A DNA stretch of 63,714 nt, counting the filler, from Catajapyx aquilonaris (lineage: Eukaryota), in assembly GCA_000934665.2 (NCBI GenBank). It is 2 parts of 2 records of this genome, joined end to end, with 100 filler letters (N's around TTAATTAATTAA, not from the genome) between each part and the next. Parts side by side here need not be neighbours in the genome. Positions count along the whole stretch, not along the records: positions 1 to 31,754 come from JYFJ02004491.1; 1 more part is not named here. The stretch is one strand, 5' to 3'. Made by a program: the position numbers and the translations under genes. Below are positions 1 to 31,754 of this stretch, in pieces (position 1 is the first letter of the stretch; each line of letters opens with the position of its first letter). The notes under the pieces were generated by a model. It was not told the origin of the DNA and did no database searches. It was given only the letters and a program-made list of their open reading frames with translations.

Positions 1-147
1 TGTGTTGCGTGCTTAAATAGTGGTGCAAACGCAATGCGAGATGGGAACAGCAGACTGGTGACGTCACGTGACCAGTCGGGGTGCAAGTACATTTGAGAAC
101 AAAATAATGGGACCATGTACAGACATGTCCAAAATAAAATGGTCACA
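1..147 (-). mobile_element. Start of a Ty3/Gypsy 3' LTR (runs off the window), preceded by a purine tract
   Basis: Minus strand reads GAGAGGT then TGTGACC at 147, directly after an integrase tail. The same TGTGAC terminus is seen on the other LTRs here. Confidence 0.5.
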
Positions 148-149
148 AC

Positions 150-520
150 CTCTCACGGTGATACCCACATCACTGTAATCGTCCTCCTCATCATCGCAGA
201 AAAATTCCGGTTGCTTCTCGGAATGCTTACTCTCTGGTTTTGCTTTCTCAACCTCGGGTTCCCTATTTACACGGTGGTTTTTGTGTGACCCTCTGAGGGG
301 TCATTACCTCTGTGTGATCATCCTCCACACTCGTATCCCATACTGGCTGCGGGAAAACCTGCCTTTCTGTGTACTTTTTCAGCCGATTTACATTGACCAC
401 CTGCGTGACCTTACTGCCTGTGAGAGGCTTGATCTCAAACACTACTGGTGACAACCGTTTGATTATCCTGTAAGGACCCTGCTTCTTCGCTCCTTCCCAA
501 TGTTTTGTGGCCTCGGCCTG
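150..520 (-). pseudogene. Ty3/Gypsy integrase C-terminal (GPY/F) fragment
   Basis: W..GPYRIIKRLSPVVFEIK..QVVNVNRLKKY; homologous to 30492-31040. Confidence 0.85.
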
Positions 521-864
521 AAACGTTGATGAGACGGGGTCTGAGGTCATCAGGTGATGACCCGACTTCCGCTCACTTGCAAAAGATCGTGACGAGGGGG
601 CAATGTAAGTAAGGTTGGTGGTTAGACCAACTTTAGTGCTTCAATCATTTCAAATGAGACGCCCAAAACAACACTGTTCATAAACAACCATGTCATTTAT
701 TTAATTAATATCTACTTTCATACATACGTCACATAAAAATCCAACAACACTAATCCCTTCTTCCGCAGTCCCAACTAAAGGGCCGCAGTCATCTAGCTGT
801 ATCAATGAAGGGCCACTGGACCACCCCGTCCCCTTCTGGGTCACAACTAACTCACGGTCATGCC

Positions 865-1398
865 TGGGTTTCCTGGACGTGCGATAGGCTTATGGTGGAA
901 GTTCTTCCGGTGTCCTCTTCTTCTTTGGCTGGTTCCGGCTGGTTTGGCTCAACTCGTAGCTTTTCGACTTCACTCACTGCTGCCTCTCTCCAACTCTCAT
1001 TTTTTTGAAATTTAGCCGCTGCTTATGTAGTGAGTTTAACTATCGGTCTTCGGTCAGCTTGGTTGCTTGTCGCATTCCAGTGCTCCATTGTGTAGTCCGA
1101 TAGGACGCTTTCCTTGGATTAACGCCTCCTCACCAACAATAGTATCGGTGGTTTTAATTATTTCAATGTCCTTACATTCTTCTTGGGGTGGGCGCAACTC
1201 GAAGGACAATCAGCTTATCTCCTGAGCAACGCTCCCGTAGTTTGGACATTTTAGTTGAATCTCGTCGTGAGGGCCTTTTGTGAACAATGCCTTTACATTC
1301 CGAAGAAATTCCTTAAATTCCTGATCCCTTCTTTGACTTTTGCAAATGCCACCTTACATGCGCCCTCTCTTAACAAATGAGGACCCTTATACCCCCTG
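865..1398 (-). repeat. High-identity copy of accessory ORF 'Z' region (duplicate of ~10713-11235)
   Basis: Near-identical DNA over ~530 bp. Confidence 0.9.
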
Positions 1399-1544
1399 TA
1401 TAAGCCAAAAATGGTCATAAGATTGTCTTGTCCCAAGGTAGCGAATTGATCTCTATGTTCAGACGTTTGACTCCCAAAAGAATATTTCCAACATCACTCC
1501 AGCCAAATTACAAAACTTAGAGTATCTACATGATTGAAACAAGG

Positions 1545-3282: not shown

Positions 3283-3300
3283 ATCCCACTTCTGACACCA
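3283..3300 (-). promoter_or_regulatory. Primer-binding site, tRNA-Leu
   Basis: TGGTGTCAGAAGTGGGAT, complementary to the tRNA-Leu 3' end, 2 nt after an LTR end (..GTCACA). Confidence 0.9.
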
Positions 3301-3302
3301 TT

Positions 3303-3969
3303 TGTGACGTGATTAAGTCGTACACAACAAATGTGGGTCCACTGAGTAACTGGTTTATTCACAAGGCAAACGTAAAAATAACAAAACATGAACGGGTCAG
3401 AGGATAGCTCAAGTATAAGGAGAGAAAGAGAGGTGTAAGGATCGGCCAGTCACCGGCTAGGGCCGCCGGCAAAAAGGCCTTGAACAATCGTGGCTCTACG
3501 GTTTAAATAGTCGGGGTGAAGAAACCTTGCATGATGGGATGAATCAAAAAAAGGGAAGGGTAAGAGGACAGAGAGCAAGGCATGATGGATATGGTGGGGA
3601 GAATACATTGATATGTACATGTGAAATGAACCTTGAAACAATGCGATGACTCTATGACGCACTATACTGCTGGGATACGTCGTAAATAAACAAAATCAAA
3701 GTGACCATGAACTGAGATTCGTGACAGTTCAAGAAAGTCAAAACAATTAATAAAATGATGGATCCGGCGATATCATCACGGAGCCGTGTGTGGCTATGTA
3801 TTCCCCAAGACGGAGTTGCATCCACGGTTGTGGGGCGGTAATTGGTGCTGGGAGAGTGTAAGTTACTACCGGGTATCTTGGTTGAGAATAATCTTCCAGG
3901 AAAGGAGGAAGAGGTGTGAAGGAAGTCATGATGTATGATCGAAGGAGGACAGAGGACTGATTGGCCACA
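3303..3969 (-). mobile_element. LTR (3' boundary firm, 5' boundary tentative)
   Basis: Ends GTCACA before the PBS; minus-strand AATAAA (~3355) and TATTTAAA (~3505) sit as in the other LTRs; TGTGGCC at 3969 is a candidate start. Confidence 0.6.
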
Positions 3970-3984
3970 TCCCGGCGTATGCAT

Positions 3985-5029
3985 ACGTGCGTATGAGATC
4001 AAAATTATTCGCTTCTCCCTGCAGGGGAATGGAAATGAACAGTCTGACCTTCGATTTCCAAACTGTTAGTTGAACAAGACATTGTCTGTAGAGTTCTCTT
4101 TGCTCCCCCGCTGTATCGGATACGACAAAAGATAGGCCTTTTGGCAAAACTGCCGAAATTTGATATATTACTTCGGAAAGCAAATCAGGGGGTACCAATG
4201 CCGGATGTAAAACACCCACGCTTGCCTGTTGAACTGCGGGTAACAAAAACGCCAGTGCATGTCTCAACTGTCCTATGACCGAATGTAACATACGAGTGCA
4301 CTTCGTTAAAGCCACATTGGTCAGGAAAGTAGACACATACTGGTTATACAAATTTATAAATATGTCGTCCACGTGAGCTGCTAATTCTGAAAGCTGATTG
4401 GCCACCTTATTAAGCGCCAAAGTATTATTCACCACCTGCGCGTTCAGCTGGTTGAGCACGGTCAACTGCAATTTTTGAGCATGTATGAGCTTATTCGTCG
4501 ACTGACGGAGAGTGTCAATTTCCGTATTCACTTTATTTAGATCCGATTGCGTTGCGGTCCCAAAAACAAACTGTAAAATTTGACCACCGATGTCCATCAG
4601 ACCACGTTTGGTCCGGGACGGTCCTCTATTCATGCCCAAGAATTTCTCCAGCTGCTTATATTCCTCCTGTACGAGGTTCATTTCATCAGTCAAAAATTCC
4701 AGTTCCTGTGCAAACTGGCTTCGTACCACTTGAAACCAGATGGGTTTGTAAATTTCTATCTGATTGACCTCCGGGAGGGAGTCATTACAAACATCACCGT
4801 GTGAGCGCAGTAAATTGCTAAGCTGGGAAATCTGAGTGGACACATTCCACAGTTGCTCATTCAGAGGAGCAAAGTCTAAGTCCAAAACTACATCCCAGCT
4901 GTTGTCCGTGTTAATGAATTGTCCTATTTTGACGAATAGAACTCCGGAATTCTGAAGTGATCCTGGAACGGGGTCTTGGGTTCGTATCGCCAGAATCCGC
5001 AGTAGGCAGGTAATCATCAGGAACCACAT
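3985..5029 (-). CDS. env: Errantivirus-type env / baculovirus F-like fusion glycoprotein, C-terminally truncated
   Basis: Signal peptide MWFLMITCLL; furin site RTKR; fusion peptide GLMDIGGQILQFVFGTAT; heptad repeat; upstream pyrimidine tract + CAG acceptor at ~5053. Confidence 0.9.
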
Positions 5030-5969
5030 GTTGATTCCCTTTTCTTTTCTTGCTGAAAAAGAACACACTTATGCTAACATGGATTATTCATGCATTCCTC
5101 GAGTCTTCTACGTTGCTCCATGTGGGAACTGCCTTACATATTGATTCTTCATCTCTTCACATATGCCCCCCTAAGGAAAATGACCACACTTATACCCATG
5201 TATAAGGTCATCATTTTTTTTCTGAAGTGTCTCAGAAGTCGTGTCATCAACTAAACGTAATTAACACAAGACGGTTGACGTTAAAGTTTTCCGATAGCCA
5301 AACCACCAAGAAAAGATACCACAAGTATTCACAGTATATAGTTTATTGCGTATGTGTACACAGGCAAAGGGGTTGCCTGTTTTAAACAGTATTAAAAAGA
5401 TAACAAACTTGGGGCTACTTACACAAGTTGGAGCTTCCTGTAGAGTCGTCCTGGAGAGAGAGCCCAAGAGAGGCGGAGGACGCTTTATATAGGGACCGTT
5501 TGCCCTTCAGAACAAGGAAATCCACGCGTGTTACATAATTAACCTTGGATATGCAAAAGCCAAGATGGACGGTACATCCGATGTACCTGCAAAACTTAGT
5601 TATATAAAGGTGACCTCTGTCCGCCCTTGAACAATACTAGAAGAGTACTAACTCACGCGTGTGCAAATGCTACGTACAGAAACAAACATGGCGCCCTCCC
5701 CGACAATTCACTTCCCTCTCCGGAAGAAATTATGGCCAGCGCCATTTCTCCTTTCACACTCATGGATAAACTGACAAAATTGAACATCTCAAATAACACT
5801 GGGAGAGAAAACTCGCACACCAAAGGAACAATAATCAAAAAATCCAAAAGAAGAGCAGAAGAATACAAGACATGACCGTGAAGGCAACCTTTTTCACTTC
5901 TTCTGTTTGGGCTCCCGGACCTTCCAGACCCTTCGTGGACCGGGCTGCCGTCGGGTCCCATAGGGGCGC

Positions 5970-6852: not shown

Positions 6853-7120
6853 CTATTTCTCTCTCAGCACTGCACTACGAGGGCCATTAGGCAGGTTTTG
6901 AATCCCAGTTTCATCTTTGTCTATTAGTTGAGGGTGTTTCCTTTTAAGATGCACGAGAAAGGACTGAAAGTTCATGTACACCTTGGTGCATGACTGAAAC
7001 CAACAGGAAATTTTGAATCCCGGCTGGGAATTGTGTACCACATTAATATGGTGGCTTAACCTATATGTTATTACAGAGCAATGGCACCTGGGACATGAAT
7101 AAAGTGGCAAGGTTGCACTG
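6853..7120 (-). pseudogene. Tandem C2H2 zinc-finger fragment, probably the N-terminus of a DNA transposase (EnSpm/CMC-like)
   Basis: CPRC..H....H and CWFQSC..Y..F..F..HL...H. Confidence 0.5.
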
Positions 7121-7314
7121 CTGGCCATTGCGTTAGCTTCAACGTATGTGCTGTTGTGATGTGCGATGTGATGCCTGCTGTTGTCAGTAATATTATCTGA
7201 ACACGCTGCCATTATTCTGAAATTGCAGGAGTGCTTCAATTATATTCATGAAAAAGTGCAACTATAAAGACTCGTCATCGAACTAACAAGCATATGACGC
7301 ACTTCTTAACAAGG

Positions 7315-8355: not shown

Positions 8356-8880
8356 CTACACTTGCATGGTACAGGTTATTTGGATGATTCTATGAGTATC
8401 CAATGCGGCCGGAGGGTGCACATATCTGCACTCCACGCCTCTGGGGCAGATGCCCAGGAGATAGTCTCGGCATATCTCTGTTTGATCTGGTTTTTGAGGA
8501 GCCTTGTTTGCTCTTTTCGACATCGTGAAGGTATCCGACAAGCTCTTCAGATTTGCTCTGCACTTCGTGATGCAAAAACCCTGGCGTTACGCTTCCTCCT
8601 CTTCCTGCCCGGAGGAGGGCTCCAAAGAGGCACTCCTTGTCGTTCATCGCCTCCCAGTCTGCCTCCTGCCACTCATCCCGGTCTTCTTCTTCCTCCCAGT
8701 CCCTGAAGTCCTCCTCCGGATCACTCCAGTGTGGGACTTCCTCTTCTGGGTTTTCCAGGTCAACGGCCCCCACTCGATGTCTATTTGGTTGTCACATTCC
8801 GGACTTGGTCCGTCAGCCGGAAGACGACCTTCGCTGTCCTCTTTGTTCTTGTGTCGGCGTTGGGTTTTCAACCAACGATA
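8356..8880 (-). pseudogene. Acidic Trp-rich accessory ORF fragment followed by a CCCH zinc finger
   Basis: HWSDPEEDFRDW..WEAMNDKECLFGALLRAG matches 11783-12301; CRDYLLGICPRGVECRYVH = C-x7-C-x5-C-x3-H. Confidence 0.7.
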
Positions 8881-9728: not shown

Positions 9729-10205
9729 CTAATCAGGGATATGACTCCTTACTAGACCACGGGGTGATCTACTCCGAGGCGCGTCCTCCTCATCTTCCGG
9801 CTCCACCAAGAGCCTGGCGAACCAAAGCTCGTAGATGCGGCCCGGAAATAATGCCTTCTTGACCACTCCTCTTCTTGCTGTTGTCTGCCAACGAGTAGAC
9901 GGTGCCAACACCCACTTTGGGTCCTCCCCAAAAACGTTGACTAGTTGTCGCCAGGACCTTGCGGTCCCTGTCTCTAACTCCAGGTGCAGGCCCTTATGAC
10001 TGGTTCTTAGTCCCGTCCACCCCTTAATGGGCCCCCAGAGGCGGATTTGGATGTCCACAGTCGCACCTGTCGTGCCTTCCCTGGCTCTGATGGTCAGCCT
10101 TGATCCCTGCAGTTGTATCTCTGGTCGTTCAGGCTCGCTGGCGAAGATCTCTAGCACCAAGACTTTGCCGAATTGGCGCCAGCTGATCAGGTGAGAGCTG
10201 CCCAT
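9729..10205 (-). CDS. p23/CS (HSP20-like) domain protein, copy 1
   Basis: ISWRQ..LVLEI..P.IQL..RL.IRA..LWGPI..LEL..W..L..P.WV matches the p23/HACD3/TDRD12 CS pattern; paralog at 14402-14827. Confidence 0.7.
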   Translation of the reverse strand: MGSSHLISWRQFGKVLVLEIFASEPERPEIQLQGSRLTIRAREGTTGATVDIQIRLWGPIKGWTGLRTSHKGLHLELETGTARSWRQLVNVFGEDPKWVLAPSTRWQTTARRGVVKKALFPGRIYELWFARLLVEPEDEEDAPRSRSPRGLVRSHIPD

Positions 10206-10514
10206 CTTGTGACTGTCGATGTTCTCCTGTCGTCCCTTTTCAAAACTACTGCCCGATAATGTCCAACTGACATTTGCGTGGCGTCTCACGGTTTTCTCTC
10301 TGTGATTTCCTTTTTACTACACTCTAACTGTATGTTTCCCTGAAACAAAGTCTCAACCTTTACTCTCGGTTGGACTAGACCGCCTACCCAGACTTGGTAG
10401 CTGTCTATTTTATTCCTTTGAGGTTGTCCCTGACTTCCTCTCTTGTGCTTTTTACTATGCACCTTCCTACGTAGGACTCCTTTTCACGTTTCCGCGACCT
10501 TTTCCCGGTTTTGC

Positions 10515-11430
10515 CTATGATTGGCTAACCTTGTGGTATCCCTGACGACACCTACTTAGATGCTGCGTGTCCTGTGACACCAGCTTGAAATTTCTCCGAA
10601 GACACGATTTACTTTTCTGCCTCTTCTGGGCATGCTCATTGCTTCTTTGCTCGCTGTCCCATCTTTGGTCATGCGCGTGCCTAATGACCCAACTAAGCGC
10701 GCATGCCGTACGTGTTTCCTGGACGTGCGATAGGCTGATGGTGGAAGTTCTTCCGGTGTCCTCTTCTCCTTTGGCTGGTTCCGGCTGGTTTGGCTCAACT
10801 CGTAGCTTTTCGACTTCACTCACTACTGTCTCTCTCCAACCCCCCTTCTTGAAATTTAGTGAGTTTAACTATCGGTCGTCGGTCAGCTTGGTTGCTTGTC
10901 GCATTCCATTCCAGTGCTCCATTGTGTAGTCCGATAGGACGCTTTCCTTGGATTAACGCCTCCTCACCAACAATAGTATCGGTGGTTTTAATTATTTCAA
11001 TGTCCTTACATTCTTCTTGGGGAGGGCGCAACTCGAAGGACAATCAGCTTATCTCCTGAGCAACGCTCCTGTAGTTTGGACATTTTAGTTGAATCTCGTC
11101 GTGAGGGCCTTTTGTGAACAATGCCTTTACATTCCGAAGAAATTCCTTAAATTCCTGATCCCTTCTTTGAATTTTGCAATTGCCACCTTACATACGCCCT
11201 CTCTTGACAAATGAGGACCCTTATACCCGCTGTAAGGTCCTTCATTTCCTTTCGTCCCTCGATGAAACGTAGCTCTCCAGTCCATTCTTGACGGCACGAC
11301 CAGTGAGTCGACCACGCCCAGATCGCCACTGGATGTATTAGGAATTTCCTGACGTTTACCTCAAATTTGCAAGAAATTCCTCCAGCTTTTGAGGACGGAG
11401 TGATCAAATTGGTACCCCAATGAACAGGCT
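10515..11430 (-). pseudogene. Frameshifted unknown accessory ORF 'Z'
   Basis: Overlapping minus-strand ORF pieces; duplicated at 865-1398. Confidence 0.45.
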
Positions 11431-11782: not shown

Positions 11783-12301
11783 CTAATGTATAATCGCTAA
11801 TTTTATTAACTCCCCTGTATTGTCACAATATTGACACTTTTTAAGTCCGGGGCCCGATGAGAATTTTTTTTTTGTATATCGGTACCCCGGACAATTTTGT
11901 TCTAGACAATATTTTCGAAACTCTTCATATTCCTCCACCACGCTGTCGAATTGGGCTTTTTCGTGACCCGACACGTGGAGGACCCAAGCGGTCGCCCAGC
12001 TGCCGGCCCGGAGGAGGGCTCCGAAGAGACACTGCTTGTCGTTCATGGCTTCCCAGTCCGTCTCCACCCATTCGTCTCGGGCGTCTTCCTCCTCCCACTC
12101 CCGGTAGTCCTCTTCCGGGTCGCTCCAGTGCTGGACTTCCTCGTCAGGATTGTCCAGGCCCACGGTCCCCTGCCCGATTTCTTCCTCGTTATCTCTTGGT
12201 TCGACAGCCGGACGACGACCGTCGCGGTCCTCTCCGTTTTTGTCTCCCCTGCCCAATTTTCCAAAGAAATAAGCAAGAATGCCTAACGTGATCACCAACA
12301 T
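11783..12301 (-). CDS. TM-anchored acidic protein with His/Cys C-terminal domain (accessory family 'T')
   Basis: Kozak ACCATG at 12301; hydrophobic N-terminus; TATATAAAA at 12354-12362; homologs at 8390, 13930, 15560 and 25164. Confidence 0.65.
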   Translation of the reverse strand: MLVITLGILAYFFGKLGRGDKNGEDRDGRRPAVEPRDNEEEIGQGTVGLDNPDEEVQHWSDPEEDYREWEEEDARDEWVETDWEAMNDKQCLFGALLRAGSWATAWVLHVSGHEKAQFDSVVEEYEEFRKYCLEQNCPGYRYTKKKFSSGPGLKKCQYCDNTGELIKLAIIH

Positions 12302-12574
12302 GGTGACTGTAGACAAATCAGGGTATGGTGTGGCAATCAGTTCGCTTGGTCTCTTTTATATACTTATTGCTTGAAGATATCATAGTTACACAAAGTACAT
12401 GGTGTTATCCTTTTGGCACTGCACTCAGTTGAAGGGAAAGAAAAAGAAAAAGGAAAGGAAAAAAAAAAGAAAGGCACTGTTGATCGGCTGCTAAGTCTGG
12501 TCTCTGGTCTTATCATAAATTTTGCTGATGCCGAGCAGCTGCTATCTTCAATTCCAGCAATTTTTTTTCTTCTT

Positions 12575-12830
12575 TTATTGTTCTGCTATTGCCTCCGTGG
12601 CCAGTCGGTTTTTCTTAATGCGCTGTTTAGGGGGTGGTTCGATGAATGTAGGGTCTGGATCTTCTTGGGCCGGAGGAAAGGGTGTTATGGGCATGGATTC
12701 CTCTGGAAGGGTCGGCAAAGGTGTCTGCTTCGGAAAGGTTTTCTTCAAGTAGTGCCTCACTCTCTGGAAAATTATGTAGGCTGCTCCAACGAAGAGGAAG
12801 TGTCCCAAGATTAAGGCCTATATCATCCAG
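12575..12830 (-). CDS. Small TM + Pro-rich ORF overlapping the end of ORF 'X'
   Basis: LGHFLFVGAAYIIF..EE.MP; homolog in the same position at 26161-26400. Confidence 0.5.
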
Positions 12831-13447
12831 AGACTTGGAGTAGTCGGGTTTGTAGTTGTTTGGTCCAAATTGTCAGCTAGTAGCTCCATTTTGCTTCTTA
12901 GGTGTTGTAATGGGATCTCCATGTCCTTGCTTTGCTGGAACTCCCTCCGCTGTCCCTCCAGCTCGGAGGCTACACCATCCAGCTTCTGGACCCACTCTTC
13001 CATCTCTTCCGTGGTCCTCGGCGTCATTATGGGATGATACTGGGGAGCTTCCAGCAAGGTGGTCATCTGGGGCTCGTTTTCAATGAAACTTTGACCCACG
13101 AAGGTAGCTGGTAAGTGTATCCCCGTGGTATAGGCAGCACACAAAGCAGGTAACTGTAGTATCCCCACCCCTTGAATTTCTTTCTCAAAAGATTCTACCC
13201 CACTGGGAAATTTTGAATCGGGACATCTTAGTGACATTGGAGACACTAGCTTACCGTTGGCCATGTTTCTGACGCGGAGCACCTCAAAGACGGCGTCGAC
13301 GGCTGCCTCCGCGTCTTCGTAGTCTTCTTCCAAGATCTCCTCTGGCAGCTCGGACAGCCGCCGGAGACTGGTGATCACCCCCGTCCCGCTCATCACGGTT
13401 AATGTGGCGATTGAGGAGGGGGGGTCAGATAGGCTGCACTGACTCAT
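12818..13447 (-). CDS. Unknown accessory ORF 'X'
   Basis: 209-aa ORF; homologs at 23610-23786 (N-terminal half) and 26400-26800 (LPALCAAY..GIHLPATF..PQYHPI). Confidence 0.65.
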   Translation of the reverse strand: MSQCSLSDPPSSIATLTVMSGTGVITSLRRLSELPEEILEEDYEDAEAAVDAVFEVLRVRNMANGKLVSPMSLRCPDSKFPSGVESFEKEIQGVGILQLPALCAAYTTGIHLPATFVGQSFIENEPQMTTLLEAPQYHPIMTPRTTEEMEEWVQKLDGVASELEGQRREFQQSKDMEIPLQHLRSKMELLADNLDQTTTNPTTPSLWMI

Positions 13448-13929
13448 TTCCCCACCAGATTCAATAGAGTCGACTGAGGTTGCCCTCTATTGTCAATTCT
13501 CCCGATGTCTTAGGCAGAGCCATCATAATTAGTGGTCATCCCGAGAAACCAACAATTGGCATTACTTCCTTAATACTAGTACAATAGTTATGCACTGGAA
13601 TATTTTGTTAGTACACTGACATATGTTAGTATACATACACTTCTGGTTTAACCCTGATGATAAGGACACTTGAGAATCATTTTAAAGCTAATTATATTTC
13701 ATTAAGAATGAGTGTTTCCTCACTCAATTGTTGAAGATGAGTTGTTGTTACACCCCATCCAGCCGCAATTGAGAAATTTAACTCCCATCAAGACAATGAA
13801 CATAAGTCCCATTTTGTTGTTGTTTTTGTTTAGTGGAAGGCTGCAATCCTGCCATTCGCTGGCCCCAGCATTTTTGGCCACAGGAAGCGTTGCCCCGGTC
13901 ATCCGGTGATCCTACAGTAGTGTTCAAAT

Positions 13930-14400: not shown

Positions 14401-14401
14401 C

Positions 14402-14827: not shown

Positions 14828-14832
14828 CTTGT

Positions 14833-14866
14833 GACTGAACGTTCCGTCTTCCTGGTCCTTTATATA
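14833..14866 (-). promoter_or_regulatory. TATA box + arthropod initiator for the CS gene
   Basis: TATATAAA (14866-14859) lies 30 nt before TCAGTC (14838-14833), followed by ACAAGATG. Confidence 0.7.
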
Positions 14867-17989: not shown

Positions 17990-18375
17990 AATTCACATAC
18001 GTGGGTTCATCATGAGCCTCTCCCCTTAACGTCGGTGATCTACCTAGCTCAGGTTCTTCATCCCCCGCACGCAACCCATCACAACTGATGGTGAGACTTA
18101 GCTCGTCCGGTACATTGTAAAGCAAATGTCCATTTCTACCTAAATTAATGAATATAGGGTCGTATTTACCTATCAAAATCTTCAGGCATATGCTTGCCTC
18201 AAGTCCATATCCCGAAATCAAGGAAAACAGGCATGATACTCTCGGTTTGGAATATACTGCACGAGGTCTAGTGCATACCCTAGGTTGCCCACTCTCACAC
18301 TCGTTTAAGTCCCCTTCTTCCAGCATCATGTATGACTGCTTATCCGCCGACACGGCCATAATTATATGGATGGTC
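17990..18375 (-). pseudogene. env: env (F-like) Cys-rich ectodomain fragment
   Basis: MLEEGDLNEC....RVC....VY.....SCL parallels 26822-27060. Confidence 0.7.
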
Positions 18376-18844
18376 AATTTTAAATGCTACAGAAATGTTC
18401 ATTATTGGTACCGGCCACTGTATTGCTCTTTATAGCGTATATCGTTCACTGTCTTTCTGTAACGGTATCGTTATGTCGAACCCTCCGCGTAATTAAGGAC
18501 TTACCTCAATTATCTGGAAGAGAACGAAAGTTGTGGCAAACGCAGGAAAAAGTTGAAATGAATATGGACACGACTCACGTGTTTTTAAATATTGGTTATT
18601 ATTGACACTTGTTGTCCAATGACAACTGAATTTACACCGTAGTGCGCGGTTTTCGTGCCTCTCTTACTGTTGCTGACTTTTTCCATGGCGGGTAGCTTCC
18701 CGTCTGACCAGGGGAAGGTCACGGCCTCTGGTACATCTGGTCGTCAAACTGATCTGAATTGTTGGTCTGTCGTCTCCCCGTGCCACCTGCTCAAGGCTAT
18801 TTACTTTCCATGTTAAACGTTACTCGACATTACAACATGCGTAT

Positions 18845-20221: not shown

Positions 20222-20680
20222 TCAGTCGTCAGGGGCTGGAAGGTTCCCATCATCACCGGAGCTCTTCACAGCACAGGGATAGGAGCGTTGGGTGGGATTA
20301 TCGTACCCAAAGAGGGCAGGAAAACAGAAAGTATGAGAGTTTGGGATCCGGTACGGTACTAGTGGGGTACCACAGGGAGGCCCGTCTTGCATGGAAGATG
20401 ACGCTTTCGATAATCTGAGCCTTCCATGGTCGGACCATTTCAATCCCCTGGACGGAACCTGGATGAGGAAAACTTGGTGGAGGTGGCGCCAAGGTGGGGC
20501 ACCGGGATGTGTGAAAGTCAAAATTGGGGGGAGAGCTTGTTCACACAAGGCTAGAGCATAACTCCCTTCCAGCCGGACCTCCATCCCTCTCAGACAAGGG
20601 TAGGTTTCATCCATTCTGGGGATGCTGGGAGTCCATCGTTCTGGACACACTTGCCGCAATGTTTTGGTCCGCAGGTCGGA
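20222..20680 (-). CDS. Unknown ORF in the TE mosaic
   Basis: Open frame with protein-like composition; no motif recognised. Confidence 0.3.
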   Translation of the reverse strand, partial: SDLRTKTLRQVCPERWTPSIPRMDETYPCLRGMEVRLEGSYALALCEQALPPILTFTHPGAPPWRHLHQVFLIQVPSRGLKWSDHGRLRLSKASSSMQDGPPCGTPLVPYRIPNSHTFCFPALFGYDNPTQRSYPCAVKSSGDDGNLPAPDD

Positions 20681-21151
20681 CATGTGGCAAGCAGTGAAAG
20701 TGCTTACAATTTCACAAACGATTACATTTAAAATGCACAAACTTTAAAAAGTTGCAAAATATAAACAGTACAACTGTACAAGTGCAATGTCAGTACAATA
20801 TAAAAAATAACTGGGTGTTAAATGAGATCATGATCCATGCATCATGACTTATTAACCTAATGCAATATATGAAAAGAGACCAGCCTTAAACCGAAATATT
20901 CTATCAATCAAGCATATCTTAGCATATTTAATAATTCTCATCACCACCATCATCAGCAGAATCTGACTCCACATCACTTGGTTGGGTCACATTCCGTAAG
21001 GAGAGGACTTCCTGATCGAAATTTCTGTCCTGCTTATGTGACTGGTTGGCCAAAGTACTTAATCTACAGGATCTGAGCTTAAGAGAAGTCTCCTAAAAAG
21101 GTCTTCATTTGTCATCATCCGGCAACTTTTGCGTGTATGATGCGTCATGTA

Positions 21152-21348: not shown

Positions 21349-23299
21349 TGTCACCATCCGACAAGAGCAGGGGATGACATAAGACACAAAAGGGTTCGTT
21401 CTATGACTCTGTTTAATGATCGATGGGATTTACATTCAGTAACAACGGTGGATAAGAAGTAGGTGAGGTGAGAGGTAGAAGGTGGGGTGGCCAGTCCTCT
21501 TGGGATATTCTCCCAAAGAGAAAAAGGCCTCGACTGAGAGATGGAATGGGTTTATAAAGGTAAAGGAAACCGCAAGGCATTGTGGGCGGGATAGGATTGT
21601 TCCAGAAGAGTCGTAGAGGAAAGTGAAGGATGACGTAATGTGAGGATGATATATACATGAAAAAATCTTAACGGTCACACACCCCCGGACCAAGCACGAC
21701 AAACAGAAACATTCAAAAACCAGGGGCGTCAAAACAAAATTTTCTTCTCGTATTAGCTGCTCGTAAGCCTGTAAGGATTGAGGTATGAGGCAATGAACAG
21801 ACAAGCTTGCAATGAACCATTGACGGATGAGGAGGCGCGTATATATTATGATCCATCGCGATGCATGATGGGTAGGGTAGGACATCCTTCCTCTATGGCC
21901 TCACAATCGCGGTTAGGTCGGGCCCGCCGAAAGTGATGCACTTGACCTTGCGGGGAAAAGTCGTTAAATGCACTACTACGGTACAGCAAATGAGGGAACC
22001 CCCCTGCCAGGGAAACACATCACAGCTGATAACTGTTTAAACGACACCCGCACCCAAGGAAGGACAGTCCAATCATAACTTGACCCGATTGGCCGACAAT
22101 CCGGGGTCTAAAGAAAATGGGTCACAGTTTTTTTTTTCACCATCTTCCACTTTCGCTTCCACTCGCACACCATGCATGGCTGCCTCCAATCGGATGATGA
22201 TATGTCCGATCCGTAAGTAGATATGTACACCGGAGTCCAAATTCTCTTCTTTCACTCACAGGGGGTTGGTGAGATGGGTACACCAAATGGGGTTAATACA
22301 CGTCCGGCGTTAGATATCAGGCAGGAAAAAGAAAAAAGAAGGGGCCCCGCTCCGTAGTAGAGTTTGTGTAGAGGGGCTCCATCCAAACATAACCATCCAC
22401 CTTTACGGGTCACTTCACGGAATGTCCTGACTCTGATGTAACAGGGTGACTCGTAATTTCAGGTCTCTCAACCTCCCAGTCTTCATTCTTTTCTTCACAG
22501 AAAGGGGCTACACATCCACCAGGGAATAAATTAGGACAAGGATAAGGTTAAGGTTACGTGCGGACGGGGATTGATGTCCACAGTGGGGTTCTTGCGACAT
22601 GCAAGCCTCCGGATAAATAGGGTGTGAGGTAAGGTTTTCTAGGAGGGGAAAAAGGAACTCTCAACGTAAGGATAAGGAGAGACGGTACGTGGGAAAAACA
22701 CGTTACCGAAAGTGTTCCAAGATTGTTTCCAATCGGAGCACAAGTCGACCTGATGGGTACTAGATACGTACACCGAGTGGTCGGGGAAAGGATTCATAAG
22801 CACGTAGCTCAATAAGAAAAGGATTTTAGGTCAGGAGGGAAAAGTCGTCGTATAGGACAGGGAAATGCTACATTGCAGATATGTCCATCACAGACGAGTG
22901 AAATACACTGAACACATCCCAAACGATACAGAGGTAAGAGTAAAAATCCCACTTCTGACTCCACTTTATGTCACCATCCGACAAGAGCAGGGGATGACAT
23001 AAGACACAAAAGGGTTCGCTCCATGACTCTGTTTAATGATCGATGGGATTTACATTCAGTAACAACGGTGGATGAGAAGTAGGTGAGGTGAGAGGTAGAA
23101 GGTGGGGTGGCCAGTCCTCTTGGGATATTCTCCCAAAGAGAAAAAGGCCTCGACTGAGAGATGGAATGGGTTTATATAGGTAAAGGAAACCGCAAGGCAT
23201 TGTGGGCGGGATAGGATTGTTCCAGAAGAGTCGTAGAGGAAAGTGAAGGATGACGTAATGTGAGGATGATATATACATGAAAAAATCTTAACGGTCACA
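21349..23299 (-). mobile_element. Intact non-autonomous mini-LTR retrotransposon (TRIM-like)
   Basis: 331-bp LTRs at 21349-21679 and 22969-23299 (about 4 differences seen); TSD AGTG; Leu PBS 22946-22963; G-rich PPT after 21679. Confidence 0.95.
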
Positions 23300-26140: not shown

Positions 26141-26800
26141 TCAGTTATTCAGTCTGTAATCTATTTGGTGACGTCCACCTTCCTGGCACGAGGCTTCACG
26201 GGCTGCTCGGTGACAGTGTCCGTCGGTATTGGAACGGACCTGGAGCGAGAAGGGATCGGATTCAGGGGTATGGCTTCTTCGGGTATGTTTACTAAGGTCT
26301 CCATTTTCTCCAGGATTTTGTGTTGTCCCCTGTACCAGCGGTAGGCGAAGATGATGACCCCCCAGCAGAGCAAAATGGGCCAGGATCATCCCCTCCATCA
26401 CTAGGATGATAAACGTTGTACTATGGTTTGTGGCAGGTGTTGTTGCTTGGTCCGCTGCTTTTTTTATTCTGTCTCGTAGCAACTTCAACGGTAGTCCGAG
26501 GTCTTGTGACGGCTCGAATTCTGCAAGCTGCTTCCCCAGTATGGCGGCCGTCTTCTCCAAGTCATGGATAATCTTGGTCATCTCTTTGGAGGTCCCTGGC
26601 TTCAGTATGGGGTGATATTGAGGCGGCTCCAGCAACGTGTTCAACTGTGGTTCACTGGAGACATGGCTGTGGCCGGTAAAAGTTGCAGGTAAATGTATTC
26701 CTGCTGCATAGGCGGCACACAAAGCTGGCAGCTTTATCACTCCTACTCCTTTTAGTTCTTTTTCAAATGAGTCCATCCCGTTTGGACTCTTGAGTGTTCG
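26141..26800 (-). pseudogene. ORF 'X' C-terminal half plus overlapping small TM ORF
   Basis: Homology to 12575-13200. Confidence 0.7.
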
Positions 26801-27066
26801 GGCACCGAATTGACATCGGCGTCAGTTTTGGGACAGAAAACAACCACTCGCCTCTTTTGATTCGATAAAAAATTGGGTTGTGTGTTTGATAATTTTTGCA
26901 TCACATAAATCATCATCTACTGGTAAACGTTTTAGGGTGTTGTATGCACAATTTTGAATGGGGGAGCTTTTTATCGGTCCACTAGGTTTGCAAATTCGTT
27001 TAGGGTTTAATGTACAGTGAGACAGATCTTCCTCTGTCATTTCCAAAAAGTAAATCTGATTTGTAG

Positions 27067-29449
27067 TGTGACCTCATTAGGGAACACACATGAAAAAACG
27101 TGGGATCAGTCGAGACAGTTTTAATAGCCAGAAAAAGGGAACAGGGTATAACGGATGAACACAAGCGCCCACCCGGGCTGATCAGTACAATCCCCGCAAC
27201 GGGGAGAGACCAAAAAGCCTTGATACAAATACAAGAGCGGTTTATATAGATCGGGGTATGGGAAGTGCATGATGGGATATCCCCGTCTCTACTAGTCAGA
27301 CGTCAGGCTAAAATGCACTTGGGTAGGAAAATGGGTATGCGTACATCAAGGAGAAATGGGATCGGAACGACAGACTATAATGTGCCCAAGGACAACAGTG
27401 TATAATGGGCATATGTAACAGAATTCTTGACGGACATACAATACAGATAGAGAAGTTACTCAACCGGGATTTAGGCATGACACCTGTTCCTCAAAGTAAA
27501 AGGGTCACACACCTCCGCCGTGAGAACTCTCCCCGGGTTTCATCTGACTGAGGTTTCAATTTTCTTACGATAATGGGGATGGCATTTATACAGGTGAAAA
27601 AGGGTGAGAGGGGTGAAATTGTTCTTTACCAATGTTGGTCCATTAAACTTTGACATGCGCGTGAAACACCACTGTACTCTTCAGCCAAATGTCATGAAAA
27701 TTAAACACATAAAACGGACTTGGCCTCATTCTCAATCAACACGAGAAACAACATTAAAAAAAACCGTGACACACAACATCTGGTGCACAACACCGTAGTT
27801 CGATGTGGTACTGGGTGGCTATTCACTCACTCGTGCACATGTCAGGGAAGTCCAAAAAAATGCAGGAGTCGTCCTCTTTGTGGTCACTGGCGTCATCTAT
27901 GGAAATCCGCTGACGGTACCATCAGAGCTGTTCAGTTCGACCAGCCGTCGGGATGGTTCTCGGCGCCGGCGGCGTCGTCGTGCCCCTCCACTATGGGTCA
28001 AGGTCCATGATGGGTTCAACACCACCGGGATGATCGGCGTCTCAAAGTATTCACGAGGTGATTGGTCGGTCTCCGGGGCACATCCCAGCAGACACCGTCG
28101 GTGAAGGTCAATTTGACAATGGTATTCAGTCAAAAGGTCGTTACCGATGATAACCGGGGTTATGGATGACCGGATTACGTAGAACGGATGGTGAAGCAAG
28201 GAAGTCCCAATTAATACCGGGAGTATCACCTCTTCACGAGGTGGGATGCAACGTCCATCATACATCACCAAAAAAGCTCCTGGGGTTGGCCTTGAAGGGG
28301 GCCGATCGATACCAGTCAGCACTGCCAAAGCGCCTGCCGCTATGGTTGAAGCTCCTGTGGCTCCTAACAGTAGTGCTTTCCACTCCCGGCCGTATATGGT
28401 GATGACAATGGAGGAGGCGGGACATTCACGGACGCCCTCGGTCAAAAGGGACTGGCTGGTGGCCATCTGGTCGGTAGTCACTCTGATGATCCACTTGGCG
28501 ATGGGATGGTTGTCGTACTCCAACTCCACCTTGCAAACGAATAGACGCCAGGTCCCTCCACATGAGGGTTAAATAAGGGGTGGTAGATATCCCAACATGC
28601 ATTAGATCAACTCTGCTTTAACCTTGTGACGACACGGGTTCAAACCGCATGTCAAAAAAGGCAATCTAAAGGGAGATGCATCTCCCCATTGCACCAAGGT
28701 ATCCATGTAACGAATACACAGTAGGGCATACCCCCACCGTGTGTGGGGGTGGCCCCAAAACGTGATTAGCTCGTATACAGGGCAGAACGACGGGACACAA
28801 AAAAAGGGACCCCCTCCAGGAATTTTCCAAGGGGTACAAATGTCCGTGTTGACCTTTACAAATATGCATTTAAAATTGGGAATCACGTCATCCTCCTTCA
28901 CCACGCACAAAAGAGGCATGTGTGGACTGGGACCGTCCCGTAGGGAACGAGGGTCATGTCCTTCTGGCACTGTAAGACTATTTTGGATCCCACTTCTGAC
29001 ACCATTTGTGTGACCTCATTAGGGAACACATGAAAAAACGTGGGATCAGTCGAGACAGTTTTAATAGCCAGAAAAAGGGAACAGGGTATAACGGATGAAC
29101 GCAAGCGCCCACCCGGGCTGATCAGTACAATCCCCGCAACGGGGAGAGACCAAAAAGCCTTGATACAAATACAAGAGAGGTTTATATAGATCGGGGTATG
29201 GGAAGTGCATGATGGGATATCCTCGTCTCCACTAGTCAGACGTCAGGCTAAAATGCACTTGGGTAGGAAAATGGGTATGCGTACATCAAGGAGAAATGGG
29301 GTCGGAACGACAGACTATAATGTGCCCAAGGACAACAGTGTATAATGGGCATATGTAACAGAATTCTTGACAGACATACAATACAGATAGAGAAGTTACT
29401 CAACCGGGATTTATGCATGACACCTGTTCCTCAAAGTAAAAGGGTCACA
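27067..29449 (-). mobile_element. Intact non-autonomous LTR element carrying a degenerate retropepsin ORF
   Basis: LTRs at 27067-27509 and 29009-29449 (~98% identical by eye); TSD GTAG; Leu PBS 28987-29004. Confidence 0.95.
27897..28529 (-). CDS. Retropepsin-like ORF lacking the catalytic Asp
   Basis: ITIYGREWKALLLGATGASTI..HPFYVI..PVIIGNDLL..HCQID. Confidence 0.7.
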   Translation of the reverse strand: MELEYDNHPIAKWIIRVTTDQMATSQSLLTEGVRECPASSIVITIYGREWKALLLGATGASTIAAGALAVLTGIDRPPSRPTPGAFLVMYDGRCIPPREEVILPVLIGTSLLHHPFYVIRSSITPVIIGNDLLTEYHCQIDLHRRCLLGCAPETDQSPREYFETPIIPVVLNPSWTLTHSGGARRRRRRREPSRRLVELNSSDGTVSGFP

Positions 29450-30491
29450 GTAGTAAGTGCCAAGTACGGATATTTTGGTGTAACCACAAATGCAGTCTCT
29501 GAATTGTTAATGGGGGTCGGCCAAGACAATACCTTGTATAACTCAAAATATTGCGTAGAATCTCGCAACGGAATGTCTATTAATAATCTAGTGGCTCCAG
29601 GAATGGCCACTGCTATCAATTTTCCAAACTGATAATAGTCATACAAAGTAGATTTGTCTAATGGCACCACAAAGGACAATTGACTTGGAAGTTTCTTAAT
29701 GAGCTGTATCAAAATTGCATTTAGTTGTGATGGTGGCAAAATGTATGTGGGTATTGACCCCTGGCTCATAACATCTATGGAGTGCAATATTTTGTTGTAC
29801 AAATCGTTTATGACTCCTAAATTAACTTCGAAAGCCCTAAACAATGTGTCCGTGTTTACAATGGCTAAAATTTGGGTTCCCATCTCACTGAATTGTTTAC
29901 TAACTGTTTGTACTAACTGTAAGTCTTTCATATCTGTTGTCAAGGTGTAAGTAATATTTCTGAGTGAGTTTAATGCTAATTCATTTTCTTTGGTCCTCCC
30001 TGCAATCTGTTCAATTATTGTGGCTTGCTCATCGAAAATGTGGAAAGTTCCTTTTTGAGTCGACACCAAGTGATCTATGCGCTTGTTAATATCCTTCTGA
30101 GTAGAGAGGCCAAACAAAAACCCTAGTGTTGCTCCCACAAACGTTAATATTTTTAACCCTCTTTTCTTCCATTGCTGTAATGGCAATGTGAAAGTGTCCT
30201 TTAATTCGCTGAATCTACATCTGAGACCACGTGTTTCATTCATTAGGCGTGACAACTCTGTCTCTTTCAAATAATAGATCTCAACTCCTGTGACCCCAAG
30301 CTTAGCCAAAAATTCATTCCATTTTTCAAAGAAATTATTGGTAGTTTTGAAAACTTTTGTAGCTCTGCCCCTAGCGTACTGATTAGTTCCATATAAGGTT
30401 CAAATTTAAAGTCCATGATTAGGCGCCATTGATTCTCAGAAACCAAGAATCCTTCATCTTGCGGTATGTACATAGACTCTAGCTTCCGGAT

Positions 30492-31390
30492 TCAATCTCG
30501 GTGCAGGTGCACGATTAGTGGTTGGGTTTCCAGTAACAGGTGGGGCCCCTCTTTGGTGAACTTAGGCTGTGAAGGCCCCCGCTCATCTACCCACGCATCC
30601 TCATAGAAAACCTGAGGCATCTCCTCTTCCTCCAAGTCCTCACCTGAATCCTCAATGTGTTTATTTCCGGAGTCGGCAGGTGAGTCCCACTCAACCTGCC
30701 CTTGTACCGGGTCAGACACAGGTTCCTTCTCCGGATAGGGTGCTCTAGGGTAATACTTTCTCAACCTGTCAACATGTACTACCTGAGTTTTCTTACCATT
30801 TAGCTGCTTGATTTCAAAATTAACTGGGGTTGTCTGTTTAATAATACGGTGTACTTCCTTCCAATGCTTATCCAGCTTTGGTGACCCCCCTGGCTTAGTT
30901 AAGGGATGGTACAACAATAGTAAATCCCCTACTTTCAAATTCTTCTGCTTAATTATCTTGTCATGATATTTCTTCTGACTGGCAAAAGCTTCAGCTATAT
31001 GTTCTCTAGCTGATTTGTACGCATTCTGTAGCCGTAACAACAGCTCTTCCTTGTAATTTTCTCATACCGCGTAATTGATTCTAGTAGTTCCTAGAAACGT
31101 ATCAAACGGCAGTTCAGGGTCACGGCCAAACAATAGGAAAAAGGGTGTCTCCAGAGTTGAGGCGTGCACTGCTGTGTTGTAAGCCATGGCGACCAACTTC
31201 AGTTGTTCGTCCCCAGTTCTCTGGTCCTCGTCGATGTAATGGCTAATGGGAAATCATTTTCACCAAATTTCCGTTAAATCCCACTTGTCCATTTGCGGCT
31301 GCGTAGTATGCAGAAATCTGGCAATAATTTGCTAATGTCCTTGAGTAACTGTGAAGTTCGATCCATGATCGGTGATAAACGTCCTTGGCA
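30492..31390 (-). pseudogene. Ty3/Gypsy integrase core + C-terminus
   Basis: ITDHGSNF, AYNTAVHAST..TPF..FGRDP, QKKYHD..VGDL..KL..HW..VVHVDRLRKY. Confidence 0.9.
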
Positions 31391-31754
31391 CGTGTAGTTA
31401 TTTTTAATGTTTGGATTTAAAACTTGAGGACACGCACTGTGATTCAGAAGTAGGTAGACGTTATTAATTAGGCATTTGAAATGCAGTAGGCCTACGTGAC
31501 ATAAATAGACGAATTATTCAGTGCAAGCAGTGAAAGTGCTTACAATTTTACAAACGATTACATTTAAAATGCACAAACTTTAAAAAGTTGCAAAATATAA
31601 ACAGTACAACTGTACTGTGTCAGAGTTACGGCGACCCGACCATAAAGGCCCCGCGCCACTGTACTAGTGTAATGTCAGTAACAATATAAAAAATAACTGT
31701 GTGTTAAATGAGATCATGATCCATCCATCAAGGTGCAAGATTCAATCAGAAAAA

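What the first reader, a model, noticed from the sequence alone, without database searches (positions are those of the whole stretch)
1..31754. Flamenco-like uni-strand piRNA cluster candidate
Seen: at least 31 kb without recognisable host genes or SINEs. Independent insertions of different classes (Gypsy integrase x2, env x3, three PBS/LTR units, LINE RT, Transib, C2H2 relic, all accessory ORFs) are all on the minus strand, whereas SINEs and genes right of the gap are mixed. Established: Drosophila flamenco is a single-strand cluster enriched in antisense env-bearing gypsy fragments. Inference: a plus-strand piRNA precursor locus in this species.
Basis: partly seen in the sequence, partly recalled or inferred. 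Interest (0 to 1): 0.8.

Follow-up and report, generated by a model that had tools for sequence, protein, structure and literature searches.

The report
One-way retroelement graveyard, candidate piRNA source
A 32-kb stretch of an arthropod genome is a pile of broken virus-like retroelements that all point the same way, the layout of loci that make transposon-silencing small RNAs, but no RNA data could be obtained to show that this one does.

Summary
The co-orientation is real. In 1-31754 every recognisable mobile-element feature lies on the minus strand. These are two Gypsy integrase C-termini, two strong, one weak and one fragmentary F-type env, three LTR/primer-binding-site units, one LINE reverse-transcriptase relic and two zinc-finger ORFs. 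All 16 of 16 internal paralogous pairs are co-oriented, against 4 of 20 in the right half. No plus-strand protein domain was found by four kinds of scan.

Three corrections apply:
- Transib was not found.
- Many "independent" pieces belong to a few families, so about nine insertions can be counted, not dozens.
- The "gap" is 44 N + TTAATTAATTAA + 44 N, an all-frame stop spacer. The left part is therefore probably a separate contig, and the contrast with the Pinin/WDR3 side is not a comparison of neighbours.

The piRNA reading fits the anatomy: a strand-pure graveyard rich in env-bearing Gypsy, with two young nested insertions in the same direction. It remains untested because no RNA data could be reached. 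A long plus-strand intron or other transcription unit explains the bias almost as well.

The scan has already flagged at least eight similar one-strand graveyards elsewhere in this same genome. I read it as a candidate new member of a known kind.

The parts
1..31754 (.). Whole left piece: gene-free mosaic of retroelement fragments, all readable features on the minus strand. Under the piRNA reading the precursor would be the plus strand. Open at both ends: both ends lie in Gypsy pol sequence.
266..640 (-). Element A: Gypsy integrase C-terminal domain. The rest of the element runs off the left end.
   Evidence: Pfam Integrase_p58_C E 3.2e-12 and SH3_Tf2-1 E 4.9e-4; 51% aa to 30729-30869
841..1406 (.). 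Repeat R1, copy 1 (93% identical, same direction as copy 2 at 10687-11240); nature unknown
3283..3745 (-). Unit G: end of an LTR (...GTCACA) followed by the primer-binding site at 3283-3300. The LTR start near 3745 is estimated by eye. No matching 3' LTR was found.
   Evidence: no partner
3929..5068 (-). Element B: F-type envelope ORF (N-terminal half of the Baculo_F profile)
   Evidence: Pfam Baculo_F E 4.9e-14, profile 27-312 of 609; 26% aa to env at 29518-30165
6856..7239 (-).
   Evidence: frame read; Atlas nearest clusters C2H2-type 0.92-0.95, a lead only; no Pfam hit at E<=0.01
8359..8586 (-). CCCH zinc-finger ORF, single copy; may be a captured host fragment
   Evidence: Pfam zf-CCCH E 4.5e-8
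8393..8791 (-). Accessory ORF family c, copy 1 (copy 2 at 11786-12355, same strand)
   Evidence: 77% nt; 76% aa over 49
9732..10313 (-). Accessory ORF family a, copy 1 (copy 2 at 14405-15040, same strand, 54% aa over 120)
   Evidence: no Pfam or PDB relative
10687..11240 (.). Repeat R1, copy 2
11786..12355 (-). Accessory ORF family c, copy 2
12821..13486 (-). ORF family b, copy 1. Inferred, not shown, to be a C-terminal envelope half. Partial copies at 23604-23810 and 26144-26821.
   Evidence: 48% aa over 131 to 26399-26791; no Pfam hit even at E<=1; Atlas 0.85 PH-like, not trusted
14405..15040 (-). Accessory ORF family a, copy 2
15128..15322 (-). Element X: envelope fragment
   Evidence: 32% aa over 65, E 1e-11, to env at 29518-29712
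16269..16887 (-). LINE (non-LTR) reverse-transcriptase relic, internally deleted
   Evidence: weak RVT_1 E 0.14
17982..18386 (-). Element C: envelope fragment (weak)
   Evidence: Pfam Baculo_F E 6.3e-3, profile 344-440, below cut-off
20579..20844 (-). Element C (probably): pol fragment homologous to the integrase-core region of element D
   Evidence: 37% aa over 83 and 74% nt to 31331-31730
21349..23299 (-). Element F: complete but internally deleted LTR element. It has 331-bp LTRs 98.8% identical, a PBS at 22946-22963, a purine run before the 3' LTR and a 4-bp target duplication CACT.
26144..26821 (-). ORF family b, copy 2. Inferred continuation of element D's env beyond the nested element E.
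   Evidence: inference from position
27066..29449 (-). Element E: complete but internally deleted LTR element abutting the env ORF of D. It has 444-bp LTRs 98.0% identical (TGTGAC...GTCACA), a PBS at 28987-29004 and a 4-bp target duplication CTAC.
29434..30399 (-). Element D: F-type envelope ORF
   Evidence: Pfam Baculo_F E 9.7e-12, profile 190-347
30495..31754 (-). Element D: integrase C-terminal domain (30495-31061) and a stop-riddled integrase-core-like frame up to the end of the piece
   Evidence: Pfam Integrase_p58_C E 1.1e-8; the core was recognised only by eye in the frame printed; no Pfam or PDB hit
31755..31854 (.). 44 N + TTAATTAATTAA + 44 N: artificial all-frame stop spacer, not a sized assembly gap

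Best explanation
The left 31.7 kb is a stand-alone stretch made of at least nine separate retroelement insertions. These are several subfamilies of envelope-carrying Gypsy (errantivirus-like) elements, three small LTR units that use the same tRNA primer site, and one LINE. They are broken, nested in one another, and all read on the minus strand.

The most likely reason for such purity is orientation-dependent retention inside a long plus-strand transcription unit, most probably a one-strand piRNA source locus of the flamenco type. Under that model Pol II transcribes the plus strand. The transcript is therefore antisense to every trapped element and is cut into piRNAs that silence active copies elsewhere. 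Insertions in the other direction give no protection or disrupt the precursor, and are lost.

Shown here: the co-orientation, the nesting with target-site duplications, the recent same-direction insertions and the env-Gypsy content.
Inferred only: transcription, its strand, and processing into piRNAs.
For: (1) Strand purity of protein features. Nine of 104 minus-strand ORFs of 60 aa or more gave a Pfam hit at E<=0.01, six of them to integrase, envelope or zinc-finger families. None of 103 plus-strand ORFs did. Nothing appeared on the plus strand in read-through frames or in 178 of 178 short ORFs.
(2) The LINE relic maps to the minus strand only.
(3) All three primer-binding sites are on the minus strand.
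(4) 16 of 16 paralogous locus pairs are co-oriented (binomial 3e-5; 14 of 14 without the two LTR pairs). The offsets are not collinear, so this is not one segmental duplication. In the right half 4 of 20 pairs are co-oriented.
(5) Elements E and F have 98.0% and 98.8% identical LTRs and 4-bp target duplications. They are therefore separate, recent insertions that again landed, or were kept, in the same direction. E abuts the env ORF of an older element.
(6) Content fits flam-like loci, which are defined by LTR enrichment plus strand bias, driven by Gypsy and enriched for env carriers (PMC10643416, passages). Gypsy-on-one-strand bins alone predict such clusters in Drosophila with TPR 0.80 and FPR 0.011 (PMC11400887, passages).
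(7) Poly(A) hexamers are half as frequent on the plus strand (18) as on the minus strand (36; p 0.02). On the right the counts are 37 and 44. The plus strand can thus be read through, although this is partly a by-product of element orientation.
(8) Earlier notes of this scan list at least eight other one-strand graveyards in the same genome (unchecked by me). This argues for a systematic cause rather than luck.
Against: No small-RNA or RNA-seq evidence of any kind bears on this stretch.

No promoter, transcription start or flanking gene can be seen, because both ends of the piece lie inside repeats.

The number of truly independent insertions is modest. About nine gives roughly p 0.004 by my own arithmetic, 2 x 0.5^9, and the window was picked because it looked biased.

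About 40-45% of the stretch has no assigned identity by my rough sum of the parts list, so hidden opposite-strand elements without recognisable proteins, for instance DNA transposons or SINE-like repeats unique to this piece, cannot be excluded.

Pfam recognised only six domains. The integrase core, the protease-like ORF and the 'env C-terminal half' are my readings by eye.

env enrichment cannot be judged without a genome-wide background.

flam-like clusters are documented in the papers I read only for Drosophila (PMC10643416).
Confidence: 0.45

Rival explanations
1. Ordinary long intron, or other long plus-strand transcription unit, of a host gene. Retroelements inserted in the sense direction bring splice and poly(A) signals and are removed by selection, so only antisense ones accumulate. 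No piRNA role is needed.
For: Intronic ERVs and LTRs show a marked antisense bias. Sense copies are a further two- to threefold rarer, and fourfold rarer for one avian retrovirus (PMC1794541, passages; abstract of PMC3517506 in the listing). All orientable features here are LTR or LINE elements, the classes most affected. Poly(A) hexamers are depleted on the plus strand. Two earlier notes on sister windows raised the same alternative.
Against: A 2-4:1 bias gives all-antisense for nine insertions only about 3-13% of the time (my arithmetic, 0.67^9 to 0.8^9). No plus-strand exon was detected in 31.7 kb by any scan. None of the short repeats that fill the one confirmed intron on the other piece (Pinin, 32952-39405) occurs here. 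The bias figures come from vertebrates.
Confidence: 0.3
2. Heterochromatic repeat island whose uniform direction has no function. It would arise by chance, by local duplication, unequal exchange and rearrangement of a few founder elements, or by elements that prefer to insert into relatives in a fixed direction.
For: Many pieces belong to few families: three accessory-ORF families, four env fragments, and LTRs with the same primer site. Blocks 8.6-10.2 kb and 12.0-14.9 kb share two segments in the same order, so some copies may be local duplicates rather than new insertions. The window was selected for looking biased. Both ends are assembly breaks in repeats, as in heterochromatin.
Against: Identities range from 26% aa to 98.8% nt, and the offsets of the pairs are not collinear, so copies differ greatly in age and origin. 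E and F carry their own target duplications. The unrelated LINE and the zinc-finger ORFs share the direction. In Drosophila, centromere-like TE islands carry Gypsy on both strands (the FlaHMM states, PMC11400887). The pattern recurs in other windows of the genome (unchecked).
Confidence: 0.15
3. The stretch lies in a giant intron of the Pinin gene, whose exons follow on the plus strand at 32.8 and 39.4 kb. The elements would then be antisense to Pinin.
For: Pinin exons at 32805-32951(+) (E about 1e-11) and 39406-39462(+) (E 0.006) correspond to residues about 226-292 of full-length Pinins. Nothing matching residues 1-225 was found anywhere in the window, although that part contains motifs identical in most of the homologues printed.
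Against: The two halves are separated by 44 N + TTAATTAATTAA + 44 N, which reads as an artificial joiner between separate contigs. The missing 5' exons are then explained by the right piece simply starting there. The earlier-findings index also speaks of 'pieces'. No sequence family is shared between the halves.
Confidence: 0.05

Closest known systems
Drosophila flamenco and flam-like one-strand piRNA clusters (van Lopik et al. 2023, PMC10643416; FlaHMM, PMC11400887)
   Same: Tens of kb of transposon fragments; Gypsy-family content on one strand only; several copies with an envelope gene; young insertions nested in old ones in the same direction.
   Different: No piRNA, promoter, splicing or tissue data here. 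The size seen is only 31.7 kb and is open-ended. The host is an unnamed arthropod rather than a drosophilid. env enrichment cannot be measured without a genome background.
Antisense retrovirus insertions in host-gene 3' UTRs as de novo piRNA sources (Rafanel et al. 2026, PMC13226689; abstract and passages read)
   Same: The principle that any exported transcript carrying antisense retroelement sequence can feed piRNA production.
   Different: Those cases are single insertions in a known mRNA. Here there is a 32-kb pile with no recognisable host exon.
Antisense-biased ERV/LTR populations in introns (Brady/Mager group 2006, PMC1794541; passages read)
   Same: LTR elements kept preferentially opposite to the direction of transcription.
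   Different: The reported bias is two- to fourfold, not total, and no enclosing gene is visible here.
Dual-strand piRNA clusters and centromere-like TE islands (as contrasted in PMC10643416 and PMC11400887)
   Same: Dense graveyards of nested transposon fragments at assembly-breaking repeats.
   Different: Those carry elements on both strands. Here 0 of 16 paralogous pairs and 0 protein features are on the other strand.

Membership tests
flamenco-like one-strand piRNA cluster | Long locus (tens to hundreds of kb) dense in transposon fragments, without host genes | tested here: met
   31.7 kb, open at both ends. No host family apart from one CCCH finger.
flamenco-like one-strand piRNA cluster | Strong strand bias of LTR/Gypsy elements | tested here: met
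   All integrase, env and PBS/LTR features are on the minus strand. 16 of 16 paralogous pairs are co-oriented. There was no plus-strand hit.
flamenco-like one-strand piRNA cluster | Selective enrichment of env-carrying Gypsy over other elements | tested here: inconclusive
   Four env fragments fall among about nine countable insertions, but no genome was available to give a background rate.
flamenco-like one-strand piRNA cluster | piRNAs (about 23-30 nt, 5' U) from one strand only, antisense to the elements | not testable with these tools
   No small-RNA data could be laid on the stretch.
flamenco-like one-strand piRNA cluster | Canonical Pol II promoter at one end and a long, spliced precursor | not testable with these tools
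   Both ends of the piece are inside Gypsy pol sequence. No flank is available.
flamenco-like one-strand piRNA cluster | Expression in somatic gonad cells; control of the matching active elements | not testable with these tools
   Needs tissue RNA and genetics.
Intronic antisense TE accumulation | Lies between exons of a gene transcribed from the opposite strand to the elements | tested here: inconclusive
   No plus-strand exon was found in 31.7 kb. The apparent neighbour Pinin is across an artificial spacer.
Dual-strand cluster / centromere-like TE island | Elements of the same families on both strands | tested here: not met
   0 opposite-strand pairs of 16.
Errantivirus-type Gypsy elements (the trapped elements) | Ty3/Gypsy pol followed by an F-type envelope gene, LTRs and a tRNA primer site | tested here: met
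   In element D the integrase C-terminus is followed by Baculo_F env on the same strand. LTR, PBS and target duplications are present in E and F. No copy is intact.

The most novel reading that the evidence does not exclude
This is one of many flamenco-type traps in a non-drosophilid arthropod, specialised in F-type-envelope Gypsy elements. That would mean the arms race between infectious retroelements and one-strand piRNA source loci is a general and old arthropod feature rather than a Drosophila peculiarity. Envelope-carrying Ty3/Gypsy elements are themselves reported to be ancient and widespread in metazoans (PMC13524379, passages).
Probability: 0.3. Interest if true: 0.65.

Novelty: new member of a known kind. 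Interest (0 to 1): 0.35.

Why it matters
If small RNAs confirm it, this locus and its sister loci in the same genome would show that strand-pure retroelement traps can be predicted from sequence alone outside Drosophila. They would also give a catalogue of the envelope-carrying elements this animal has had to silence. If instead it proves to be an intron, it gives a useful measure of how complete orientation selection can be in a large arthropod genome. As it stands it is a reasonable candidate of a known kind, not a discovery.

Tried and rejected
RNA and read evidence
- The look-up of sequencing runs listed 5 runs and no RNA holder. This blank says nothing about expression.
- Read laying failed. 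One search, on the left part alone, was stopped by a filter and counted, so nothing was laid. I did not resend.
- No whole genome is held for this window, so copy numbers, flanks and a genome-wide strand-bias test were impossible.

Protein searches
- Whole-frame scanning through stops added nothing to the ORF scan. One search exceeded the print limit. The scan was then done through 18 translate calls. Short-ORF scans also added nothing.
- The search for homologous proteins found nothing for the Pinin exon or the integrase ORF.
- Atlas on ORF 12821-13486 gave only a 0.85 PH-like lead, which I do not trust.
- PDB sequence searches of three accessory ORFs and of the integrase frame found nothing useful.

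Other tests
- Rfam and ARAGORN found nothing on the left.
- The Pinin-intron idea took the one representative search and was then undercut by the spacer.
- CpG observed/expected is 0.73 on the left and 0.55 on the right. This is inconclusive, because element age and gene-body methylation are confounded.
- Earlier-findings look-ups by sequence and by place 'near' returned nothing.
- Transib was sought only through Pfam, which gave no hit. I could not run a dedicated Transib/RAG1-like profile beyond Pfam.

Full report
WHAT THE WINDOW IS

The window is 63,714 bases of animal-type DNA. No whole genome is held for it. Earlier notes of this scan describe the genome as arthropod.

The only long N run is 31755-31854. 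Read directly, it is 44 N, then TTAATTAATTAA, then 44 N. That 12-mer puts a stop codon in every frame of both strands. From memory, such spacers are used to join separate contigs. The scan's own index also speaks of "pieces".

I therefore treat 1-31754 and 31855-63714 as probably separate contigs. This affects the finding in two ways. And the left piece has no known flanks: both its ends lie inside Gypsy pol sequence.

CHECK OF THE OBSERVATION BY PROTEIN DOMAINS

I listed all 413 stop-to-stop ORFs of at least 60 aa, 207 on the left and 206 on the right, and scanned them against Pfam.

On the left, 9 of 104 minus-strand ORFs and 0 of 103 plus-strand ORFs had any family at E<=0.01. Six of the nine are meaningful:

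| Family | Place (strand) | E-value |
|---|---|---|
| Integrase_p58_C | 266-640(-) | 3.2e-12 |
| Integrase_p58_C | 30495-31061(-) | 1.1e-8 |
| Baculo_F (F-type envelope) | 3929-5068(-) | 4.9e-14 |
| Baculo_F | 29434-30399(-) | 9.7e-12 |
| Baculo_F, below Pfam's cut-off | 17982-18386(-) | 6.3e-3 |
| zf-CCCH | 8359-8586(-) | 4.5e-8 |

The other three hits (Mis12, MBOAT, eIF-1a) are far below their cut-offs, and I take them as chance.

To give the plus strand a fair chance I made three further scans:
- All six frames were translated with stops read as X and scanned. The nine plus frames gave 0 families. The nine minus frames gave only five of the six hits above, missing the weak env.
- All short ORFs of 35-59 aa were scanned. 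For the plus strand, 178 of 178 gave 0 hits at E<=0.01.
- For the minus strand, 146 of 146 short ORFs also gave 0 hits.

Pfam is thus exhausted, and everything it sees is on the minus strand.

LINE RT. ORF 16242-16745(-) finds six database proteins (E 2e-13 to 9e-6). Five of the six carry RVT_1. One 1014-residue hit also carries two endonuclease/exonuclease/phosphatase families, which marks a non-LTR element. Laid back on the window, these proteins match only 16269-16887 on the minus strand, with an internal deletion.

Three PBS/LTR units. This is confirmed. The motif TGGNGTCAGAAGTGGGAT occurs three times, at 3283, 22946 and 28987. All three are on the minus strand and on the left, against 0.18 expected and 0 of 100 shuffles reaching three.

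C2H2 relic. ORF 6856-7239(-) shows two Cys-Cys...His-His pairs in the printed frame. Its nearest Atlas clusters are C2H2-type at 0.92-0.95, which is a lead only. Pfam gives nothing at E<=0.01.

Transib. No tool found it, so I count it as not confirmed.

ANATOMY OF THE LTR UNITS

Element E (27066-29449, minus):
- 444-bp LTRs, 98.0% identical, starting TGTGAC and ending GTCACA.
- The primer site lies right after the upstream LTR, and a purine run lies before the downstream one.
- CTAC flanks it on both sides.
- Its upstream LTR begins 15 bases inside the end of the env ORF of element D. E therefore looks like a later insertion into D, in the same direction.

Element F (21349-23299, minus):
- 331-bp LTRs, 98.8% identical.
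- The same kind of primer site, and CACT on both sides.

Both elements are only about 2-2.4 kb, so they are internally deleted.

Unit G (about 3745-3283, minus) is an LTR end plus a primer site identical to E's. No partner LTR was found.

PARALOGUES AND INDEPENDENCE

Self-comparison by blastn and by tblastn of all 876 ORFs of at least 40 aa was clustered into locus pairs.

| Region | Locus pairs | Same strand | Opposite strand |
|---|---|---|---|
| Left piece | 16 | 16 | 0 |
| Right piece | 20 | 4 | 16 |
| Pairs linking the two pieces | 0 | - | - |

The left result gives binomial 3e-5, or 14 of 14 without the two LTR pairs. Left against right gives Fisher 7e-7. A relaxed blastn also finds no similarity between the two pieces.

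Identities on the left run from 26% aa (env against env) to 98.8% nt. The offsets are not collinear, so this is not one duplicated block.

- The long "accessory" ORFs fall into three families. Family a is 9732-10313 and 14405-15040. Family b is 12821-13486, 23604-23810 and 26144-26821. Family c is 8393-8791 and 11786-12355.
- Blocks 8.6-10.2 kb and 12.0-14.9 kb share two segments in the same order.

I can defend about nine separate insertions whose direction can be read: A, B, G, X, the LINE, C, F, E and D. All nine one way has a two-sided chance of about 0.004 (my arithmetic). That is significant but not overwhelming for a window picked because it looked biased.

By my rough sum of the parts list, a little over half of the 31.7 kb is assigned. 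The rest is unidentified.

WHAT IT MOST LIKELY IS

A strand-pure graveyard needs a cause that distinguishes the two strands. The obvious one is transcription of the plus strand.

Piece by piece, the layout matches what defines flam-like clusters in Drosophila: LTR enrichment with strand bias, driven by Gypsy and enriched in env carriers (PMC10643416, passages read). In that genus, Gypsy-on-one-strand bins alone predict such clusters with a true-positive rate of 0.80 and a false-positive rate of 0.011 (PMC11400887, passages).

The two young elements E and F show that the direction rule still held recently. Poly(A) hexamers are half as common on the plus strand (18 against 36, p 0.02) as on the minus strand, while the right piece has 37 against 44. 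This fits a strand that can be read through, although it partly follows from element orientation.

I put the one-strand piRNA source at 0.45.

RIVALS

An ordinary long intron or other plus-strand transcription unit (0.30) would also favour antisense retroelements. Reported biases are two- to fourfold (PMC1794541, passages). That makes nine of nine unusual (roughly 3-13%) but not absurd, and introns are far commoner than piRNA clusters.

Two points count against it. No plus-strand exon appears in 31.7 kb. And none of the short repeats that fill the one confirmed intron in the window occurs here.

The two readings can also merge. In flies, antisense insertions in host 3' UTRs are enough to start piRNA production (PMC13226689, abstract and passages).

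A functionless heterochromatic island shaped by chance and local rearrangement gets 0.15.

The specific idea that the stretch is a giant Pinin intron gets 0.05:
- Pinin exons lie at 32805-32951 and 39406-39462 on the plus strand.
- The conserved first 225 residues are found nowhere in the window. The search returned 30 homologues. The nine longer ones were laid back by tblastn.
- The spacer explains that absence more simply.

COMPARISON, NOVELTY AND VERDICT

The stretch works like, and may be, a flamenco-type cluster. The defining tests could not be run: one-strand 5'-U small RNAs, a promoter, and somatic gonad expression.

Earlier notes of this scan list at least eight other one-strand transposon graveyards in the same genome, all equally without RNA data (not checked by me). 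This is therefore a repeat of something the scan has already found on other DNA of the genome. That recurrence argues against luck, but it does not choose between a piRNA cluster and a long transcription unit.

I class it as a candidate new member of a known kind, with interest 0.35.

The boldest reading still open has probability about 0.3. It is that non-drosophilid arthropods keep many flamenco-type traps against envelope-carrying Gypsy elements, which are themselves ancient in animals (PMC13524379, passages). That would make the system old and general.

Noticed in passing
31755-31854: The 'gap' is 44 N + TTAATTAATTAA + 44 N, a spacer with stops in all six frames. The window is probably two contigs joined artificially, which affects any finding that relies on adjacency across it.
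   Followed up: partly
32805-32951 (+) and 39406-39462 (+): Two exons of a Pinin gene, matching residues about 226-292 of full-length homologues. They are separated by a 6.4-kb intron full of short inverted repeats. The conserved N-terminal 225 residues are not in the window, so the piece starts mid-gene.
   Followed up: yes
56105-61625 (-): Exons of a WDR3/UTP12-type WD40 gene: Utp12 and WD40 beta-propeller Pfam hits on five minus-strand ORFs.
   Followed up: no
47254-47310 (-), within repeat 46998-47323 / 62687-62988: A tRNA-like segment (Rfam tRNA, 33.9 bits) inside a repeat present twice in the same direction. Probably a tRNA-derived SINE family, found on the right piece only.
   Followed up: no
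40049-40214, 41052-41438, 59792-59967; also 21149-21276 on the left: Self-complementary (palindromic) repeats of 130-400 bases, MITE- or hairpin-like. The right piece has many inverted pairs (16 of 20 pairs). The left piece has only the one palindrome, just downstream of element F.
   Followed up: no
3283-3300, 22946-22963, 28987-29004 (all -): Three LTR units whose LTRs no longer align with one another by blastn keep an almost identical 18-nt primer-binding site (17-18 of 18) and similar LTR ends. This suggests a family of small non-autonomous LTR elements riding on the same tRNA primer.
   Followed up: partly
1-31754 versus 40001-63714: CpG observed/expected is about 0.73 across the left piece and the first Pinin intron, but 0.38-0.56 across the gene-rich part of the right piece. 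This hints at germline DNA methylation of gene bodies in this genome.
   Followed up: no
8359-8586 (-): A well-preserved CCCH zinc finger at the start of an ORF beginning with Met, single copy, next to accessory ORF family c. It could be a captured host gene fragment or part of an unknown element's gene.
   Followed up: no
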